DNA of 64,000 bases, taken from positions 64,001-128,000 of the forward strand of contig CAWHXD010000006.1 in assembly GCA_963833225.1 (NCBI GenBank), read 5' to 3'. Position numbers and translations under genes: made by a program. The DNA comes from an uncultured Chloroflexia bacterium (lineage in GTDB: Bacteria; Chloroflexota; Limnocylindria; Limnocylindrales; CSP1-4). The notes under the pieces are model-generated. The model was not told the DNA's origin and ran no database searches. It worked only from the letters and a program-made list of their open reading frames with translations. Shown here in pieces: positions 50,434 through 63,998 of this stretch. Position 1 is the first letter of the stretch; every line of letters starts with the position of its first letter.

Positions 50434-50805
50434 TGGTGGAGATGGGGGAGAGTCGAACTCCCCGTCCAGAACCCTTCGCCTGGATCCACTACGAGCGTGT
50501 CCGATGATTTTCGTCAACCGGTCGGCCGCCCATCGGCAGGCTTCCGTCCGGTCCATTCACGTGTCCCTAGATCGGGCTTGGCTCCCGGGTACGCGACCTC
50601 TCCGGGGTTGCACCTTCGCTAAGTGACACTTCCACGGCCCGCGAAGGGGAGGCCGCTTCCATGCTCACCTTACCGCCTAAGCGGCGAGGGCGAGAGCAGG
50701 CTGCTTGTTGGCAGTTACTTCTGTTTGCCGCCTGTTTTACGAGGCCTGACGGCACCTCGGCTCGCGTCTCCAGACAGCTGAGCCCTGTCGAAACCACGCA
50801 TCCCC
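50434..50805 (-). ncRNA. ssrA: tmRNA (372 nt); tag peptide (A)ANKQPALALAA
   Basis: 5' GGGGATG pairs with 3' CATCTCC-ACCA including a G3.U pair; T-arm GGGGAGTTCGACTCTCCCC; tag ORF GCC (50712) to TAG (50677) after AACT; TGCTAGGAT extended -10 upstream. Confidence 0.96.
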
Positions 50806-57984: not shown

Positions 57985-58446
57985 CTACCGGCGCCGTGCT
58001 TCGGCTACGGCGCGGTCCATGTCCCGCTTGCTGTCCCGCTCCTGGATCTCGCGCCGGCGGTCCCAGGTCTGCTTTCCGCGCGCCAGGCCCAGGAGCAGCT
58101 TGGCCTTGCCCCGATCGTTGATGTAGATCGAGAGCGGCACCAGGGTGAGGCCCTTGGCCTTGGTCTTGCCCAGCAGCTCATCGATCTCATCGCGGTGGAG
58201 GAGCAGCTTGCGGGCGCGCTTGGGCTCGTGGTTGAACCGGACGTCGGCGGATTCCCACGGCGCGATGTGCAACCCGATGATCCACGCCTCGTCACGCTCG
58301 ATGCGCGCGTACGCATCGGCCAGGCTGACCTTGTGCGCCCGGACGCTCTTGATCTCGGTGCCGCGCAGCACGATGCCCGCCTCGAAGGTGTCCTCGACGC
58401 TGTACTCGTGGCGCGCTCGTCGGTTCTGGGCGATGGTCTCGCCCAT
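57985..58446 (-). CDS. smpB: SsrA-binding protein
   Basis: IAQNRRARHEY, EAGIVLRGTEIKS, RKLLLH, GLARGK..WDRR; AGGAG Shine-Dalgarno. Confidence 0.97.
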   Translation of the reverse strand: MGETIAQNRRARHEYSVEDTFEAGIVLRGTEIKSVRAHKVSLADAYARIERDEAWIIGLHIAPWESADVRFNHEPKRARKLLLHRDEIDELLGKTKAKGLTLVPLSIYINDRGKAKLLLGLARGKQTWDRRREIQERDSKRDMDRAVAEARRR

Positions 58447-58568
58447 CGGTGGCTCCTCTCGTGGTGGCAGGCCAGTGTCGCACGGGGCGGGCTGGGGCTC
58501 CGGACGCCGGGCCCCGATGGGCCCCGGGCGACGGGGCCTGGATGGGCCCGGCGACGGCGCCGGACGCA

Positions 58569-58600
58569 CGAACGCCGGCCCGTTGCCGGACCGGCGTTCG
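58569..58600 (-). terminator. Strong hairpin with GCAA tetraloop, probable terminator of the small transcript
   Basis: Minus strand CGAACGCCGGTCCG-GCAA-CGGGCCGGCGTTCG; weak U-tail. Confidence 0.6.
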
Positions 58601-58631
58601 AATTGCTACCGACCACCCGTCGGGATCGTCT

Positions 58632-58682
58632 CTAGACGACGATCTCCGCCGAGGTGGTGCAGCAACTACTACTGTCGATCAC
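58632..58682 (-). CDS. Putative 16-aa small peptide MIDSSSCCTTSAEIVV within a structured small transcript
   Basis: GAAAGGAGGTGAT Shine-Dalgarno (58688-58700), GTG start, TAG stop; dedicated promoter upstream and hairpin downstream. Confidence 0.6.
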   Translation of the reverse strand: MIDSSSCCTTSAEIVV

Positions 58683-58711
58683 TGCACATCACCTCCTTTC
58701 GTTCGCAAGCG

Positions 58712-58740
58712 ACCCTACCCGATCCTGCTTGAGCGCGCAA
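58712..58740 (-). promoter_or_regulatory. Sigma70-type promoter of the small-ORF transcript
   Basis: TTGCGC (58735-58740), 17 bp, TAGGGT (58712-58717). Confidence 0.65.
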
Positions 58741-58780: not shown

Positions 58781-60124
58781 TCAGGCAGCCAGATCCGCCC
58801 GCAGGATACGGGCCGCGCCGGCACCCAGCTCCTGGAGCGCCCGGTCCAGCACCGGGTCGTCGCCGGGCGTGGCCGGCGGCTGATCGACCACGATGTCGGG
58901 CTCGATGCCGACGCGGTGCACCCACGTCCGGTCCGGTGTCAGCCACTTGGCGATCGTGAGCCGGAAACCACCGCTGTCGTCCTCGAGCTGGGTCCATTGC
59001 TGGACCGTACCCTTGCCGAACGTCCGGGTGCCGATCAGCGTCGCCCGCCCGCGATCGTGCAGCGCCCCCGCCACGATCTCCGATGCCGAGGCCGATCCAC
59101 CGTCTACGAGGAGCATCACCCGGATGCTCGGGTCCACGGCCACGCCGCCCGGCCTGGCAACGGTCTCGAGGAGCGACCCGTCGGCAGCCTCCTGCCAGAA
59201 GATGGTGCCGTCGGGAATGAACTGGCTCGCGATGTCACGGGCCGCGGTCACGTACCCGCCGGGGTTGCCGCGCAGGTCCACGATCAGCTTCGTCCGTCCC
59301 GCGTTGACGTCCTCGGTGAGCGCCGCAAGGAACTGCTGGGAGGCGTGATCGGAGAAGCCCGAGAGGCGGATGTAGCCCACGGTCCCGCCGGCCAGGTCCC
59401 TGGCCTCGACCTCCGGCCTGACGATCACGTCGCGGACGATCTCCACGTCCCGTGGCGCCTCGTCGGCCCGCTCGATGGTGAGCACCACCGCCGTGCCCTT
59501 TGGCCCCCGGACGTCGACGAGGACGTCGTCGAGCGTTCGACCGTCGTTGGGAACGTCATCGACCTGCGTCACCACGTCACCCGGCTGGAGGCCTGCACGG
59601 TCGGCCGGCAAATCCTTGATGGGGGCGATGATGACCATCCGGCAGTCCGGCCCGAGATCGCGGCAGGACGAGCTGGCTCCGGCGCCGTCGACCGTGCCGA
59701 TGGTGGCCCCGATTCCCTCGAACTCGCCCGAGATCCCCTCCAGGCTCTGCTTGAACTCGTCGGACGTGAGGTAGGAGGAGTACGGGTCGTCGAGCGCACC
59801 GATCATCCCCTTGATGGCGCCTTCCACGAGGGCCTTCCGATCGACCTCGCCGCCGGCATAGCGCTCGGTGACCGCGCGGTAGGCGTCCCAGAAGGGCTGG
59901 AACAGCTCGGTCTCGTTGGCCGGGGTGCCGGGCGTGAGCGCCACCTGCCGGCCGAGGCTCCAGCCCGAGAGGAAGAGCACGCTGCCGGCGAGGACGGCGA
60001 TCAGGCTGGCCGCCACGATGGTGGTTGCGGTCCGGCGGGCCGGTCGGCCGGAGCCCGGCGCCACGGCGGGTGACGGGGCAGCCGGGGCCTCGGGGTCCGG
60101 GGCGGCTTGAGGTTCGAGGGACAT
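58781..60124 (-). CDS. S41 carboxy-terminal processing protease (CtpA family)
   Basis: LDDPYS, PDZ GIGA, VDLRGNPGG, SASASEI, TFGKG. Confidence 0.93.
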   Translation of the reverse strand: MSLEPQAAPDPEAPAAPSPAVAPGSGRPARRTATTIVAASLIAVLAGSVLFLSGWSLGRQVALTPGTPANETELFQPFWDAYRAVTERYAGGEVDRKALVEGAIKGMIGALDDPYSSYLTSDEFKQSLEGISGEFEGIGATIGTVDGAGASSSCRDLGPDCRMVIIAPIKDLPADRAGLQPGDVVTQVDDVPNDGRTLDDVLVDVRGPKGTAVVLTIERADEAPRDVEIVRDVIVRPEVEARDLAGGTVGYIRLSGFSDHASQQFLAALTEDVNAGRTKLIVDLRGNPGGYVTAARDIASQFIPDGTIFWQEAADGSLLETVARPGGVAVDPSIRVMLLVDGGSASASEIVAGALHDRGRATLIGTRTFGKGTVQQWTQLEDDSGGFRLTIAKWLTPDRTWVHRVGIEPDIVVDQPPATPGDDPVLDRALQELGAGAARILRADLAA

Positions 60125-62017: not shown

Positions 62018-63055
62018 TCAGACCAGGGCCAGCGAGATCGGGACGTAGCGTTCGAAGGGGTGATCCCGCCGCGACCAGCAGATGAGGGCGGGGAACCCGT
62101 CAAGCCGGAGGCCGGCGTCGAGCAGCGCCCGCGTGGCGACGTCGGCGGATCCCGGCACCCACATCGCGACCGCGCCCAGCATCGGCGTCTCGCGGACGGC
62201 CACGCCCAGGAGCGCGGGGTGGAGCGCGGGATCGAGCGCCGCGACGGGGCCAAGGCGCCCCCTGCCGGATCCGTACACGTAGCCCGCGACGTTCCCGGTG
62301 CGACGCTCGCGGACCAGGAACCCGGCCCGACCCTCGCGGCGAAGCCAGGCATGCTCCTGGGGATGTGCCGCCCCGATCAGCTCCCGGTCGAGCGCATCCA
62401 CGATGTCCGCGAGCCGCCGCTCCCCATCCTGCTCGCCCGATGCGATCGCCTCGAATGGCACGGCCTCGAGCGAGGCGGGCAGCAGTGGAACGGCCGACCA
62501 GCGCCGGATCTCGCCGATCAATCGCCATGCCGGGATGCGAGGCACCATGCCGCGCCGCGCGTACAGCGCGTTCGAGATCGGTTGCGCGGCGTCGGTGCAC
62601 ATGCCCCAGGTGTGGATGCCCGTGTCCAGGGGATCGTCCGGTCCTGGCACGGCCGGCCCCCCCGGGTCCACGTCGCGACCCGCTTGCGCCCGGTCCATGA
62701 GCGCCTGCCCCAGCCCGGCCGCCTGCCTTCCGGGTTGCACGAACAGCATCGCGAGAAACCAGATGCCCTCGCGGACCGTTGCCGACGAGAAGCCCACCAG
62801 CCGCTCACCGCCGCCGTCATCGCGGACCGTTGCCACCCAGTACCGCCCGGGGTCGGCCACGAGCAGGTGCGCGAGCAGCCGCCGCAGCGGCAGGACGTCG
62901 TCCGGCATCGGGGGCTGGGCGAGCCGAGCCTGGTAGTCGTCGACGGCCGCCTTGTGGAGCTGCGCGCAGGCATCGAGGTCCGACTCGCGTGCGGGTCGGT
63001 AGGCCGCCGGCCCAGGCGCGGGCGCGGCAGGGAGACCGGCCACCGGACCGGCCAC
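62018..63055 (-). CDS. GNAT-family acetyltransferase (tandem GNAT fold)
   Basis: YRPARESD, FLAMLFVQPGRQAAGLGQALM, ALYARRG; GAGGAG Shine-Dalgarno before GTG at 63055. Confidence 0.8.
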   Translation of the reverse strand: MAGPVAGLPAAPAPGPAAYRPARESDLDACAQLHKAAVDDYQARLAQPPMPDDVLPLRRLLAHLLVADPGRYWVATVRDDGGGERLVGFSSATVREGIWFLAMLFVQPGRQAAGLGQALMDRAQAGRDVDPGGPAVPGPDDPLDTGIHTWGMCTDAAQPISNALYARRGMVPRIPAWRLIGEIRRWSAVPLLPASLEAVPFEAIASGEQDGERRLADIVDALDRELIGAAHPQEHAWLRREGRAGFLVRERRTGNVAGYVYGSGRGRLGPVAALDPALHPALLGVAVRETPMLGAVAMWVPGSADVATRALLDAGLRLDGFPALICWSRRDHPFERYVPISLALV

Positions 63056-63059
63056 GGGT

Positions 63060-63998
63060 CTACTCCTCCCCGTCGACGTCGTCGGCGGACGGCGGCCGGC
63101 CCGTGGCGAGGCGGTCCAGCTCTGCCTGCATGAAGGCATCCAGGTCCCCGTCGAGCACGGCTCCCGTGTTCGACGTCTCGTGGGCTGACCGCAGGTCCTT
63201 GACCATCTGGTACGGGTGCAGGACATACGAGCGGATCTGGTTGCCCCAGCCGGCGGTGACGTGCTCACCGCGCAGCTTGCGCAGCTCCTCCTCGCGCTTC
63301 TCCAGCTCCACCTCGAGGAGGCGGGACTTGAGGACCCGGATCGCGAGCTCGCGGTTCTGGATCGCCGAGCGCTCGTTCTGGCAGGTGACGACGATCCCGG
63401 TCGGGATGTGGGTCAGCCGGATCGCCGACTCCGTTTTCTGGACGTGCTGCCCACCTGCGCCCGAGCTGCGGAACGTGTCGGTCCGGATCTCGTCCCAGTT
63501 GAGCTCGATCTCGACATCATCGTCCGCCTCGGGCATGACCTCGATCAGGGCAAAGGTCGTCTGGCGGCGCTTCTGCGCGTCGTACGGGCTGATTCGGACC
63601 AGGCGGTGGACGCCGCGCTCGACCCGCAGCCAGCCGTAGGCAAACCGCCCCGTGACGGTGATCGTCGCGCTCTTGATCCCCGCCTGCTCACCAGGCTGGG
63701 AGTCCAGGATCTCGGTCTTGAAGCGGTGGCGCTCGGTCCAGCGCAGGTACATGCGCAGCAGCATCTCGGCCCAGTCCGTGGCCTCGGTGCCGCCCGCGCC
63801 GGCGCTGATCGTGACCACGGCGTTCTTGGCGTCATAGTCGCCGGAGAACAGCAGGAGGGTCCGCTCGCGCTCGAACACCGTGCGAAGCCCATCGGCCTCC
63901 CGGGCGACCTCGGCCTCGGTGTCGTCGTCGGGGCTCTCGTCGAGGAGGTCCAGCAGCTCCTCGAGATCCGCGGCGCGCTTCTCCAGCGAGCGCCAGAG
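63060..63998 (-). CDS. prfB: Peptide chain release factor 2 (5'-truncated by the window edge)
   Basis: GAGGTEA, GVHRLVRISPY, SSGAGGQHV (GGQ), WGNQIRSYVLHPY; frame open to the window end; prfB-ftsEX-smpB neighbourhood. Confidence 0.95.
   Translation of the reverse strand, partial: LWRSLEKRAADLEELLDLLDESPDDDTEAEVAREADGLRTVFERERTLLLFSGDYDAKNAVVTISAGAGGTEATDWAEMLLRMYLRWTERHRFKTEILDSQPGEQAGIKSATITVTGRFAYGWLRVERGVHRLVRISPYDAQKRRQTTFALIEVMPEADDDVEIELNWDEIRTDTFRSSGAGGQHVQKTESAIRLTHIPTGIVVTCQNERSAIQNRELAIRVLKSRLLEVELEKREEELRKLRGEHVTAGWGNQIRSYVLHPYQMVKDLRSAHETSNTGAVLDGDLDAFMQAELDRLATGRPPSADDVDGEE

What the first reader, a model, noticed from the sequence alone, without database searches (positions are those of the whole stretch)
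58569..58740. Unannotated small transcription unit: maximal Shine-Dalgarno, 16-aa Cys-Cys peptide and long RNA hairpins, upstream of smpB
Seen on the minus strand: TTGCGC-17-TAGGGT promoter, then GAAAGGAGGTGAT, complementary to essentially the whole canonical 16S 3' tail. This is by far the strongest SD in a window where many genes appear leaderless. It is followed by GTG...TAG encoding MIDSSSCCTTSAEIVV. The 3' two-thirds of the ORF folds into an interrupted rod (58603-58665): TTGCTGC/GTAGCAA, ACCACC/GGTGGT, TCGG/CCGA, GATCGTC/GACGATC, with the stop codon in the apical loop. A 14-bp GNRA hairpin follows. The ORF is less GC-rich than typical genes here and is missing from the ORF track. Inference: a dual-function sRNA/micropeptide, ribosome decoy, or translation-sensing leader. 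Its position among ribosome-rescue genes (smpB, ssrA, prfB) is suggestive, although smpB seems to have its own extended -10 (TGCGACACT).
Basis: partly seen in the sequence, partly recalled or inferred. Interest (0 to 1): 0.78.

Follow-up and report, generated by a model that had tools for sequence, protein, structure and literature searches.

The report
Mini-ORF leader RNA before smpB
A small, strongly conserved RNA with its own promoter, the strongest ribosome-binding site in the genome and a tiny translated reading frame sits in front of the ribosome-rescue gene smpB, and it is a distant relative of two known small RNAs whose function is still unknown.

Summary
On the minus strand, 58740-58562 holds a conserved promoter, a 13-nt Shine-Dalgarno (SD) found only twice in the 3.89-Mb genome (here and antisense to the 16S 3' end), a 16-codon ORF, a covarying hairpin with the stop codon in its loop, and a 14-bp hairpin.

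A covariance model finds one copy in 137 of 151 genomes of the class. smpB follows on the same strand in 75 of 75 distinct loci. In several relatives ssrA follows smpB.

- **ORF:** the frame is kept through indels of 3, 6 and 9 nt, so it is probably translated. Cys-Cys is not conserved.
- **Structure:** The SD and start codon pair with an anti-SD inside the ORF; that anti-SD can instead pair with a downstream SD-like copy.
- **Relatives:** Rfam Ms_IGR-5 and CC2171 match full length but below threshold. Their true members share the extended SD, a mini-ORF and an SD-like motif just before the last codon, but none lies beside smpB.

Best reading: a new, smpB-linked variant of this orphan sRNA/mini-ORF group, acting as a translation-gated leader. 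The mechanism is inferred, not shown.

The parts
58735..58740 (-). -35-like hexamer TTGCGC
   Evidence: GCTTGC is kept at the same distance in 30 of 30 genus loci, and as TTGCGC/TTGTGG in another family. It was not found by the consensus scan.
58712..58717 (-). -10-like hexamer TAGGGT (TAnnnT), 17 nt after the -35
   Evidence: GGGTAnGGT is conserved. Family f4 has TGCTAGCAT at the same place. RNA-library contigs of two studies stop at 58687-58695, which is a weak hint of a 5' end nearby.
58688..58700 (-). 13-nt Shine-Dalgarno GAAAGGAGGTGAT, perfectly complementary to the 16S 3' tail
   Evidence: 2 copies in the genome, the other being antisense to the 16S end. It is invariant in the genus.
58632..58682 (-). 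Mini-ORF GTG...TAG, 16 codons, MIDSSSCCTTSAEIVV
   Evidence: The start-to-anti-SD distance is 18, 21, 24 or 27 nt in 74 of 74 loci, while the SD-to-start spacing varies between 9, 10 and 11 nt.
58678..58695 (-). 5' strand of helix A (GAGGTG + GTGCAGTGAT: SD core and start codon)
   Evidence: RNAalifold. 16 pairs are 100% paired in 30 sequences and 94% paired in 54 sequences of three families.
58651..58666 (-). 3' strand of helix A, the anti-SD inside the ORF (GTTGCTGCAC + CACCTC). ACCACC can also pair with the downstream GGTGGT (helix B).
58621..58648 (-). Apical hairpin with the stop codon in its loop. It contains the internal SD-like GGAG, which ends 6 nt before the last sense codon.
   Evidence: Compensatory changes in 8 of 10 pairs across 54 sequences. 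The SD-like motif ends 5-6 nt before the last sense codon in 55 of 61 distinct ORFs.
58612..58618 (-). SD-like copy GGGTGGT, partner of the anti-SD in helix B
   Evidence: CG[GC]GTGG is kept across f1, f2 and f4. It pairs with ACCACC when the SD is held open. It is invariant, so there is no covariation evidence.
58569..58600 (-). 14-bp GC-rich hairpin with a GCAA loop: terminator or attenuator-like. There is no U-tract in this genus.
   Evidence: 12 of 14 pairs show compensatory changes. A U-rich tail follows it in f4 and f3.
58562..58568 (-). Invariant tail TGCGTCC after the hairpin
58474..58482 (-). TGCGACACT, a possible extended -10 of smpB's own promoter. It is limited to this genus.
   Evidence: GTGCGACACT or GTGGCACACT lies about 33-40 nt before the smpB ATG in most genus loci. 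It is missing in L021, L023, L027 and L030 and in other genera.
57985..58446 (-). smpB (ATG at 58446, preceded by GAGAGGAG at 58460-58453)
   Evidence: Pfam SmpB, E 1.7e-57. It lies downstream of the element in 75 of 75 distinct loci.

Best explanation
The stretch 58740-58562 (minus strand) is a real, separately promoted RNA of about 145 nt. It heads the trans-translation locus (smpB, and in relatives smpB-ssrA).

The RNA starts a few bases before a 13-nt SD that matches the whole free 3' tail of the 16S rRNA. It carries a translated 16-codon mini-ORF. It can fold in two ways:
- In helix A, the SD and start codon are sequestered by an anti-SD that lies inside the ORF.
- In helix B, that anti-SD pairs instead with a downstream SD-like copy, which leaves the SD open.

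An SD-like GGAG sits 5-6 nt before the last sense codon, and the stop codon lies in the loop of a covarying hairpin. A stable hairpin closes the unit.

Inferred working: 30S binding and passage of a ribosome toggle the fold. Most transcripts end or pause at the hairpin as a small RNA. Read-through supplies smpB mRNA. In this way the leader would couple ribosome availability or translation stress to the supply of the rescue factor.

By descent it is a distant, smpB-linked variant of the orphan sRNA group that includes Rfam Ms_IGR-5 and CC2171.

Shown: the anatomy, conservation, synteny, covariation, frame conservation and resemblance. Inferred: translation itself, the terminator function, and the regulatory logic.
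For: Conservation:
- 35 of 36 genus relatives hold it at 86-95% identity.
- Model R1 finds it in 137 of 151 genomes of the class: f1 44/44, f2 6/6, f4 49/50, f3 37/49, f5 0/1.
- There is one true copy per genome. The extra hits I read were mostly another conserved RNA-like motif with a similar hairpin, the rest coding 3' ends or lone hairpins.

Link to smpB:
- smpB starts 136-429 nt after the SD on the same strand in 75 of 75 distinct loci.
- The spacer behind the hairpin is only 20-60 nt and mostly lacks an SD in f4 and in some f1 genera. L050 has 22 nt.
- The hairpin has a U-rich tail in f4 and f3.
- tmRNA follows smpB directly in 6 of the 10 loci of this class that were scanned.

Structure:
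- Helix A has 16 pairs and is 100% paired in 30 sequences, and both variable pairs change toward better pairing.
- Across 54 sequences, 23 of 40 pairs carry double changes, and 0 of 500 shuffles reach the observed value.
- Several G-U pairs fit only the minus strand.

Translation:
- Indels inside the ORF are all multiples of 3 (74 of 74 loci), while the SD-to-start spacing varies by 1-2 nt.
- L017 has an in-frame 3-nt deletion.
- Ms_IGR-5 carries ribosome footprints in two mycobacteria (a passage of PMC4974804).

SD uniqueness.

Kinship:
- The CC2171 model's best hit in the whole genome is this element, E 0.0018.
- There is a graded series of RF02471 scores: 185, 126, 38, 32, 27 and 19 bits.
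- The SD, the mini-ORF and the SD-like motif before the stop are shared.

RNA-library contigs from three studies hold relatives' copies. One contig joins the element to the smpB start.
Against: - No alternative antiterminator pairing was found. In constrained folds the terminal hairpin forms in every state.
- In this genus the hairpin has no U-tract, and smpB has a conserved TGCGACACT motif plus its own SD. Here smpB may therefore be expressed independently.
- Relatives are stand-alone and not next to smpB: 0 of 44 loci in other phyla, 0 of 10 Caulobacterales CC2171 loci, and 0 of 7 loci in other classes of the same phylum. The core function cannot be smpB control, and the linkage could be inherited synteny.
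- Helix A and helix B involve mostly invariant bases, so covariation cannot choose between them.
- The expression data are contigs of relatives from metatranscriptomes, in which DNA carry-over is possible. One run's contigs extend upstream of the promoter.
- Both Rfam scores are below the gathering thresholds.
Confidence: 0.5

Rival explanations
1. It is a stand-alone small RNA whose job has nothing to do with smpB. One possibility is an RNA that binds 30S subunits, or a factor that recognises the 16S 3' tail, through its extended SD and its internal copy of the anti-SD. On this view smpB merely uses read-through of its hairpin in this class.
For: - The same kind of unit is stand-alone in Actinomycetota, Binatia and Planctomycetota (44 loci, none near smpB), in Caulobacterales and in other classes of this phylum (7 loci).
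- CC2171 and Ms_IGR-5 are detected as discrete small RNAs (passages of bioRxiv 10.1101/2022.01.24.477521, PMC8079986 and PMC8780764).
- The SD is longer than ordinary initiation needs.
- In another class the ORF holds AGGCATCACCTC, a near copy of the 16S tail.
- This genus may have its own smpB promoter.
Against: - The link to smpB survives rearrangement: family f3 has lost the upstream S41 peptidase gene but keeps element-smpB.
- Many lineages leave no room for another smpB promoter.
- The reading frame is conserved, which a pure decoy would not need.
Confidence: 0.27
2. The functional product is the micropeptide itself (13-17 residues, often with Cys), and the RNA structure only tunes its synthesis.
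For: - Frame conservation.
- The N-terminus is conserved as M-I/T/S-D/E/S, with synonymous changes in unpaired codons 2-4: ATC/ATA, GAC/GAT and AGT/AGC.
- Similar ends, E-V/M/A-A/V-x-stop, recur across phyla.
Against: - The most conserved residues coincide with RNA elements: TT is the anti-SD ACC ACC, and E-V is the SD-like GAGGTG.
- Codon 5 is free to vary (S, R, G, C, A, N), and Cys is replaced by Tyr or is absent.
- Length ranges from 12 to 28 codons.
- The peptide is too short for the protein search tools, so there is no homology evidence.
Confidence: 0.12
3. It is a classical amino-acid-sensing leader-peptide attenuator (Cys, Ser or Thr codons) or a heat-sensing SD-masking thermometer.
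For: There is a short ORF rich in Ser, Cys and Thr codons before a hairpin, and the SD is masked by pairing.
Against: - There is no antiterminator alternative.
- Cys is not conserved.
- The Thr codons are fixed as ACC ACC by pairing.
- smpB is not an amino-acid biosynthesis gene.
- Helix A has 16 mostly G-C pairs, which is far more stable than the thermometers I recall. That comparison is recalled, not tested.
Confidence: 0.04

Closest known systems
Rfam RF02471, Ms_IGR-5 (actinobacterial sRNA, function unknown)
   Same: - The model aligns full length (1-184) to the element.
- True members are Mycolicibacterium at 185 bits and Nocardioides at 126 bits.
- These members carry an extended SD (AAGGAGGTGGTCC), a start codon 11 nt later and a 12-codon ORF beginning M-I-D (MIDLWTCEVAAS, MIDSWMREVAAR).
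- GAGGTGG ends 5 nt before the last sense codon, the stop lies in a small hairpin, and a long-range helix and a terminator follow.
- Ribosome footprints are reported (a passage of PMC4974804).
   Different: - The score is 18.7 bits against a gathering score of 45.
- The phylum differs: 0 of 151 genomes of this phylum score over the cut-off.
- Here the ORF holds the anti-SD and the SD-like copy lies downstream. In Ms_IGR-5 the ORF holds the SD-like copy and the anti-SD-like CAGTCACC lies downstream (my reading).
- Ms_IGR-5 is not next to smpB.
Rfam RF01867, CC2171 (alphaproteobacterial sRNA, function unknown)
   Same: - Its best hit in this whole genome is the element, E 0.0018.
- The SD GAAAGGAGGTGATCCAGTG matches 17 nt of the 16S tail.
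- Mini-ORFs of 20-23 codons such as MSHCHQPEPVTATWASACGVRA are found, with GAGGTC or GGGGTC 5 nt before the last codon, followed by a terminator.
- Expression has been shown by Northern blot and the function is not known (a passage of bioRxiv 10.1101/2022.01.24.477521).
   Different: - The score is 26.5 bits against a gathering score of 75.
- The ORF is longer and the middle structure differs.
- It is not next to smpB in 10 of 10 Caulobacterales loci.
Ribosome-dependent leader-peptide attenuators (trpL, ermCL, whiB7 uORF type; recalled, not tested here)
   Same: A short translated ORF with its own SD lies in a 5' leader and is followed by a terminator-like hairpin before the regulated gene.
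   Different: No antiterminator pairing and no regulatory codons were found. The stop codon lies 35 nt before the hairpin.
Feedback between trans-translation and rescue factors (arfA type; recalled)
   Same: A short ORF whose end lies in a hairpin is placed beside a ribosome-rescue gene.
   Different: Here the ORF has a conserved stop codon (TAG, TAA or TGA). No cleavage that would create a non-stop message has been shown. The regulated gene would be smpB itself.

Membership tests
Rfam RF02471 Ms_IGR-5 | Covariance-model score at or above the gathering score (45 bits) | tested here: not met
   18.7 bits, E 0.04 on 551 nt. There is no hit at whole-genome level. The order-level relative L062 scores 27.2 bits.
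Rfam RF02471 Ms_IGR-5 | Occurrence in Actinomycetota as a stand-alone intergenic unit | tested here: not met
   The phylum holds no member over the cut-off in 151 genomes. Here the unit always lies before smpB.
Rfam RF01867 CC2171 | Covariance-model score at or above the gathering score (75 bits) | tested here: not met
   26.5 bits. It is the best hit in the genome, E 0.0018.
Rfam RF01867 CC2171 | SD complementary to the 16S tail, mini-ORF and terminator | tested here: met
Leader-peptide transcription attenuator | Translated leader ORF followed by a terminator directly upstream of the regulated gene | tested here: inconclusive
   ORF frame conservation. The hairpin has a U-tail, and there is no room for a promoter, in f4, f3 and some f1 genera. 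In this genus there is no U-tract, and smpB may have its own promoter.
Leader-peptide transcription attenuator | Mutually exclusive antiterminator and terminator structures controlled by ribosome position | tested here: not met
   The terminal hairpin forms in all constrained folds of 9 representatives.
SD-sequestering RNA switch | SD and start codon paired with a conserved anti-SD, plus an alternative partner for the anti-SD | tested here: met
   Helix A. Helix B forms when the SD is held open. Clearer versions occur in other classes: GAGGTGATGCCT paired with AGGCATCACCTC.

The most novel reading that the evidence does not exclude
Ms_IGR-5, CC2171 and this smpB leader are one ancient family, spread across several phyla, of ribosome-tethering mini-ORF RNAs.

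Each RNA holds the ribosome by a full-length SD at initiation and again by an SD-like motif at the last codon. Each also carries an internal copy of the 16S anti-SD that closes the SD behind the ribosome. The family would work as a sensor or buffer of free, intact 30S subunits. In this class it has been wired to the trans-translation locus, so that the supply of ribosome rescue factors follows ribosome availability.
Probability: 0.2. Interest if true: 0.85.

Novelty: new variant of a known kind. Interest (0 to 1): 0.64.

Why it matters
Little is known about how smpB is regulated. My three searches gave no title or abstract on an smpB leader or uORF; I read passages of two of the papers listed, and neither concerned one.

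A leader that is conserved across a whole class, carries the strongest SD of the genome and holds a translated mini-ORF would be a testable way for a cell to match rescue capacity to the state of its ribosomes.

The comparison also ties together two orphan Rfam sRNA families from different phyla through a shared mini-ORF and a shared SD/anti-SD layout. That gives experimenters in Caulobacter and Mycolicibacterium smegmatis a concrete hypothesis for RNAs that have had no known function since they were first described.

Tried and rejected
- **Promoter and terminator scan.** It found nothing on the minus strand. The hexamers are too far from the E. coli consensus, and the hairpin lacks a T-run.
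- **Rfam at gathering level.** Only tmRNA was found.
- **Earlier findings.** A second call sent in the same turn returned an error. No earlier findings were seen.
Rejected: it is broken in 7 of 30 sequences.
- **Extra R1 hits as paralogues.** Rejected. Of the 16 loci fetched and read, one is a true copy (L101); most of the rest hold another conserved motif (ACGGGGCTGAAGTAGTGGCAC) with a similar hairpin, and a few are coding 3' ends or lone hairpins. None of the 5 that I scanned matches Rfam.
- **L084 and L254.** These are spurious model hits. L084 is coding sequence plus a hairpin, and L254 is a tRNA plus a terminator.
- **L031.** This is an Ms_IGR-5-like unit in genome G147 at 42 bits. It is not the orthologue, since G147 has a normal copy at C1. 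L031 has the neighbours and ORF type of Binatia loci such as L143, so it is probably a mis-binned contig.
- **tmRNA tag.** The tag ANKQPALALAA shows no likeness to the mini-ORF.
- **Antiterminator search.** Constrained folding found none.
- **5'-3' closing stem.** One is seen in some f4 and f2 folds but is not general.
- **Literature.**
  - No paper holds the mycobacterial mini-ORF peptide strings.
  - Searches for smpB with 'leader peptide' and 'attenuation', and with 'uORF', listed nothing whose title or abstract concerns an smpB leader; I read passages of only two of them.
  - The original Ms_IGR-5 paper (PMC3527728) is not held.
  - Supplementary tables are closed. The Ribo-seq data set of PMC4974804 and the sRNA tables of the Streptomyces papers may hold coordinates or ORF calls that I could not see.
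- **Metatranscriptome contigs.** Stretches of the window without cover, and the depth figures, say nothing. Contigs cannot show ends, strand or level.
- **Phylum.** It was not established. It is not Actinomycetota, judging. My guess of Chloroflexota is recalled and untested.
Full report
**1. What is there**

Read on the minus strand, the 335-nt gap between an S41 peptidase gene (58781-60124) and smpB (57985-58446; Pfam calls) holds the following parts:
- TTGCGC at 58740-58735, a 17-nt spacer, and TAGGGT at 58717-58712.
- GAAAGGAGGTGAT at 58700-58688.
- GTG at 58682, opening a 16-codon ORF (MIDSSSCCTTSAEIVV) that ends at TAG 58634-58632.
- A long imperfect hairpin, then a 14-bp hairpin with a GCAA loop at 58600-58569.

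The RNA folds far better than shuffles: z -6.1, with 0 of 200 shuffles as good. The opposite strand gives z -5.2. However, several conserved G-U pairs fit only the minus strand.

The genome's own 16S gene ends in GGATCACCTCCTTTCT. The 13-mer SD occurs twice in 3,890,542 bases, once here and once as the antisense of that 16S end.

**2. Conservation and neighbours**

BLAST in 60 relatives found the unit in 35 of 36 genomes of the genus at 86-95% identity. In an alignment of the 30 loci that were returned, the promoter hexamers, SD, start, TGCTGCACCACCTCG, stop and terminal hairpin are invariant, while the flanks are unalignable.

I built a covariance model, R1, from these 30 loci plus one order-level relative. 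It found the unit in 137 of 151 genomes of the class: f1 44/44, f2 6/6, f4 49/50, f3 37/49, f5 0/1. Five unpublished genomes are counted in that tally; none of their sequence was used.

smpB lies downstream on the same strand in every distinct locus that holds both. That is 75 of 75 loci, from 77 rows, two of which are duplicates. The distance from SD to ATG is 136-429 nt. Three loci were dropped: L049 (contig end), L084 (a spurious hit) and L031 (see section 8).

The S41 peptidase gene is upstream in f1, f2 and f4 but not in f3, so the link to smpB has survived rearrangement. In 6 of the 10 loci of this class that were scanned, tmRNA follows smpB directly. In the window it lies 7 kb further on, at 50434-50805.

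Behind the hairpin, f4 and some f1 genera have only 20-60 nt before the smpB start, mostly without an SD. In f4 and f3 the hairpin is followed by a U-rich tail.

This genus differs. It has no U-tract, a conserved GTGCGACACT or GTGGCACACT about 33-40 nt before the ATG, and the SD GAGAGGAG. That motif is missing in L021, L023, L027 and L030.

**3. Structure**

RNAalifold on the genus alignment pairs the SD core and start region (GAGGTG, GTGCAGTGAT) with GTTGCTGCAC and CACCTC inside the ORF. This helix A has 16 pairs. All cells are paired in 30 sequences, and the two variable pairs change from U-G to U-A (7 sequences) and from U-G to C-G (8 sequences).

When the SD-to-start stretch is held single-stranded, as a bound ribosome would hold it, the anti-SD ACCACC pairs with the downstream GGGTGGT. 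Both partners are invariant, so covariation cannot decide between the two helices.

I then aligned 54 sequences of f1, f2 and f4 to R1. I left out, by eye, 15 near-duplicates, 6 duplicate loci and the 5 f3 loci, which the model aligns poorly. Results:
- 23 of 40 pairs carry double changes, and 0 of 500 shuffles reach that value.
- The apical hairpin has 8 of 10 compensatory pairs.
- The terminal hairpin has 12 of 14 compensatory pairs.
- Helix A has 3 pairs with double changes and is 94% paired.

The alignment is fitted to the model, which favours the structure.

With a ribosome placed on the stop codon, helix A re-forms behind it. The terminal hairpin forms in every state tested.

**4. The reading frame**

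An ORF starts 9-11 nt after GGAGG in every locus. It has 13-17 codons in f1, f2 and f4 and 24-28 codons in f3. There are 59 distinct peptides among the 78 loci read.

The distance from the start codon to the anti-SD is 18, 21, 24 or 27 nt in 74 of 74 loci with the motif. The four f3 loci lack it by my pattern. By contrast, the spacing between SD and start varies by 1-2 nt. Indels are thus free outside the ORF and come in threes inside it, which a hairpin loop alone would not demand. This is the main evidence for translation.

Against a peptide function:
- The best-kept residues coincide with RNA elements. TT is ACC ACC, and E is the GAG of an SD-like GGAG.
- Codon 5 varies freely.
- Cys-Cys becomes Tyr-Cys in 7 of 30 genus sequences, and Cys is absent in some f4 ORFs.

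A GGAG or GAGG motif ends 5-6 nt before the last sense codon in 55 of 61 distinct ORFs. The other six are: none found 1, and spacings of -3, 0 and 8 nt in 1, 1 and 3 ORFs. That is the spacing of a working SD, so a terminating ribosome could again pair with the message. This last point is inference.

**5. Relatives**

In permissive mode Rfam gives two full-length matches below threshold: CC2171 at 26.5 bits (gathering 75) and Ms_IGR-5 at 18.7 bits (gathering 45). The CC2171 model's best hit in the whole genome is this element, E 0.0018.

I read the 80 that were listed, and by eye 44 of them are small units of this kind. They fall into these groups:
- Mycobacterium and Mycolicibacterium: MIDLWTCEVAAS.
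- Nocardioides, Rhodococcus, Nocardiopsis and Actinomadura: MIDSRAREVAVR.
- Solirubrobacterales and Acidimicrobiales: MIDSSCGTLEVTGR.
- Binatia: MIDDNCFVCEVTET.
- Planctomycetota.

RF02471 scores fall off in steps: 185 bits for Mycolicibacterium and 126 bits for Nocardioides (both over threshold), then 38 and 32 bits for public Binatia and Solirubrobacterales loci, 27 bits for the order-level relative, and 19 bits here.

Of 17 Caulobacterales genomes, 12 hold CC2171 over threshold. All 10 Caulobacterales loci that I read carry a 20-23-codon ORF behind GAAAGGAGGTGATCCAGTG (or a close variant), most of them beginning MSH, and 8 of the 10 end in E/G-V-x-A-stop.

In 30 of 34 distinct ORFs of the other-phylum set, GAGG ends 8 nt before the last sense codon, so GAGGTGG ends 5 nt before it.

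Seven genomes of other classes of this phylum also have stand-alone units. One more hit was spurious, and 136 such genomes were searched. In these units the anti-SD is an even closer copy of the 16S tail: GAGGTGATGCCT pairs with AGGCATCACCTC, and the ORF is MSDQPIGITSGKVS. None matches an Rfam family at threshold.

None of these relatives lies near smpB.

What is in print, as far as I could see:
- Ms_IGR-5 is expressed in Streptomyces (passages).
- It carries ribosome footprints in two mycobacteria (passage).
- CC2171 is seen by Northern blot, and its function is not known (passages).

Supplements are closed, and the original Ms_IGR-5 paper is not held.

**6. Expression**

No run holds the window's own sequence well. 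The best DNA share is 0.34.

Contigs of three RNA libraries from three studies cover 58560-58708 at about 90-95% likeness, so they come from relatives. Three observations:
- One contig joins the element to the smpB start across a shorter spacer.
- Another runs 75 nt past the hairpin.
- Contigs of two studies stop at 58687-58695, while a probable DNA run goes on.

One library's contigs also extend upstream of the promoter, and DNA carry-over cannot be excluded. This evidence is weak.

**7. How it most likely works**

Shown:
- A conserved, separately promoted, structured unit.
- A genome-unique SD.
- A frame-conserved mini-ORF.
- SD masking by an internal anti-SD that has an alternative partner.
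- A covarying terminal hairpin.
- Fixed placement before smpB in one class.

Inferred: ribosome binding and transit switch the fold, and helix A closes again behind the ribosome. The hairpin ends or pauses most transcripts, and read-through feeds smpB (and ssrA in relatives). Rescue capacity would then follow ribosome availability or translation stress.

I put 0.5 on this leader reading. The alternatives are 0.27 for a stand-alone ribosome-directed sRNA with incidental linkage, 0.12 for a functional micropeptide, and 0.04 for an amino-acid attenuator or a thermometer.

The chief weaknesses are three: no antiterminator was found, smpB may have its own promoter in this genus, and the relatives are stand-alone.

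**8. Verdict**

This is a real feature. It is not a member of either Rfam family by their thresholds, but it shares their anatomy. I class it as a new, smpB-linked variant of a known but unexplained kind. Its interest lies in the class-wide link to trans-translation and in the shared mini-ORF and SD/anti-SD layout, which joins two orphan sRNA families across phyla.

The phylum of the window was not established.

Noticed in passing
window 58678-58687 (minus strand): A two-codon frame, GTG CAG TGA, starts 4 nt after GGAGG, and its stop overlaps the main GTG start. It is present in most f1 and some f4 loci but is open-ended in others such as L049, L050 and L058.
   Followed up: partly
window 58474-58482 (minus strand): A conserved TGCGACACT or TGGCACACT motif lies about 33-40 nt before the smpB ATG in most genomes of the genus only. 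It may be an extended -10 of a second promoter.
   Followed up: partly
L089, L091, L093, L095, L096, L098, L100 (family f4 genomes), around locus positions 1440-1600: A conserved RNA-like motif contains ACGGGGCTGAAGTAGTGGCAC. An upstream CACAAGTGAAGAACCGTCG-like box precedes it and a terminator follows. None of the 5 loci scanned (L089, L091, L093, L095, L098) matches Rfam at E 0.01. It may be an undescribed leader or riboswitch.
   Followed up: partly
L031 (G147:C6:10199-10383): A low-GC contig in a genome of the same family carries a Binatia-type unit (MIDLSTGCEVAET; RF02471 42 bits). It has the same HEAT-like and M24 peptidase neighbours as the Binatia locus L143. It is probably a mis-binned contig.
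   Followed up: partly
window 50434-50805 (minus strand): tmRNA with tag peptide ANKQPALALAA. It lies 7 kb downstream of smpB here, but directly after smpB in several relatives.
   Followed up: yes
L248, L252 (family f32 genomes of the same phylum) and L145 (a Planctomycetaceae MAG): In these genomes the stand-alone mini-ORF unit lies next to ribosomal RNA genes. In L248 and L252 the 5S and 23S genes are on the opposite strand. In L145 the 23S gene is on the same strand.
   Followed up: no
window 63060-63998 (minus strand): A class-I release factor gene (PCRF and RF-1 domains) is cut by the window end. A GNAT acetyltransferase-like ORF at 62018-63268 lies between it and ftsE.
   Followed up: partly
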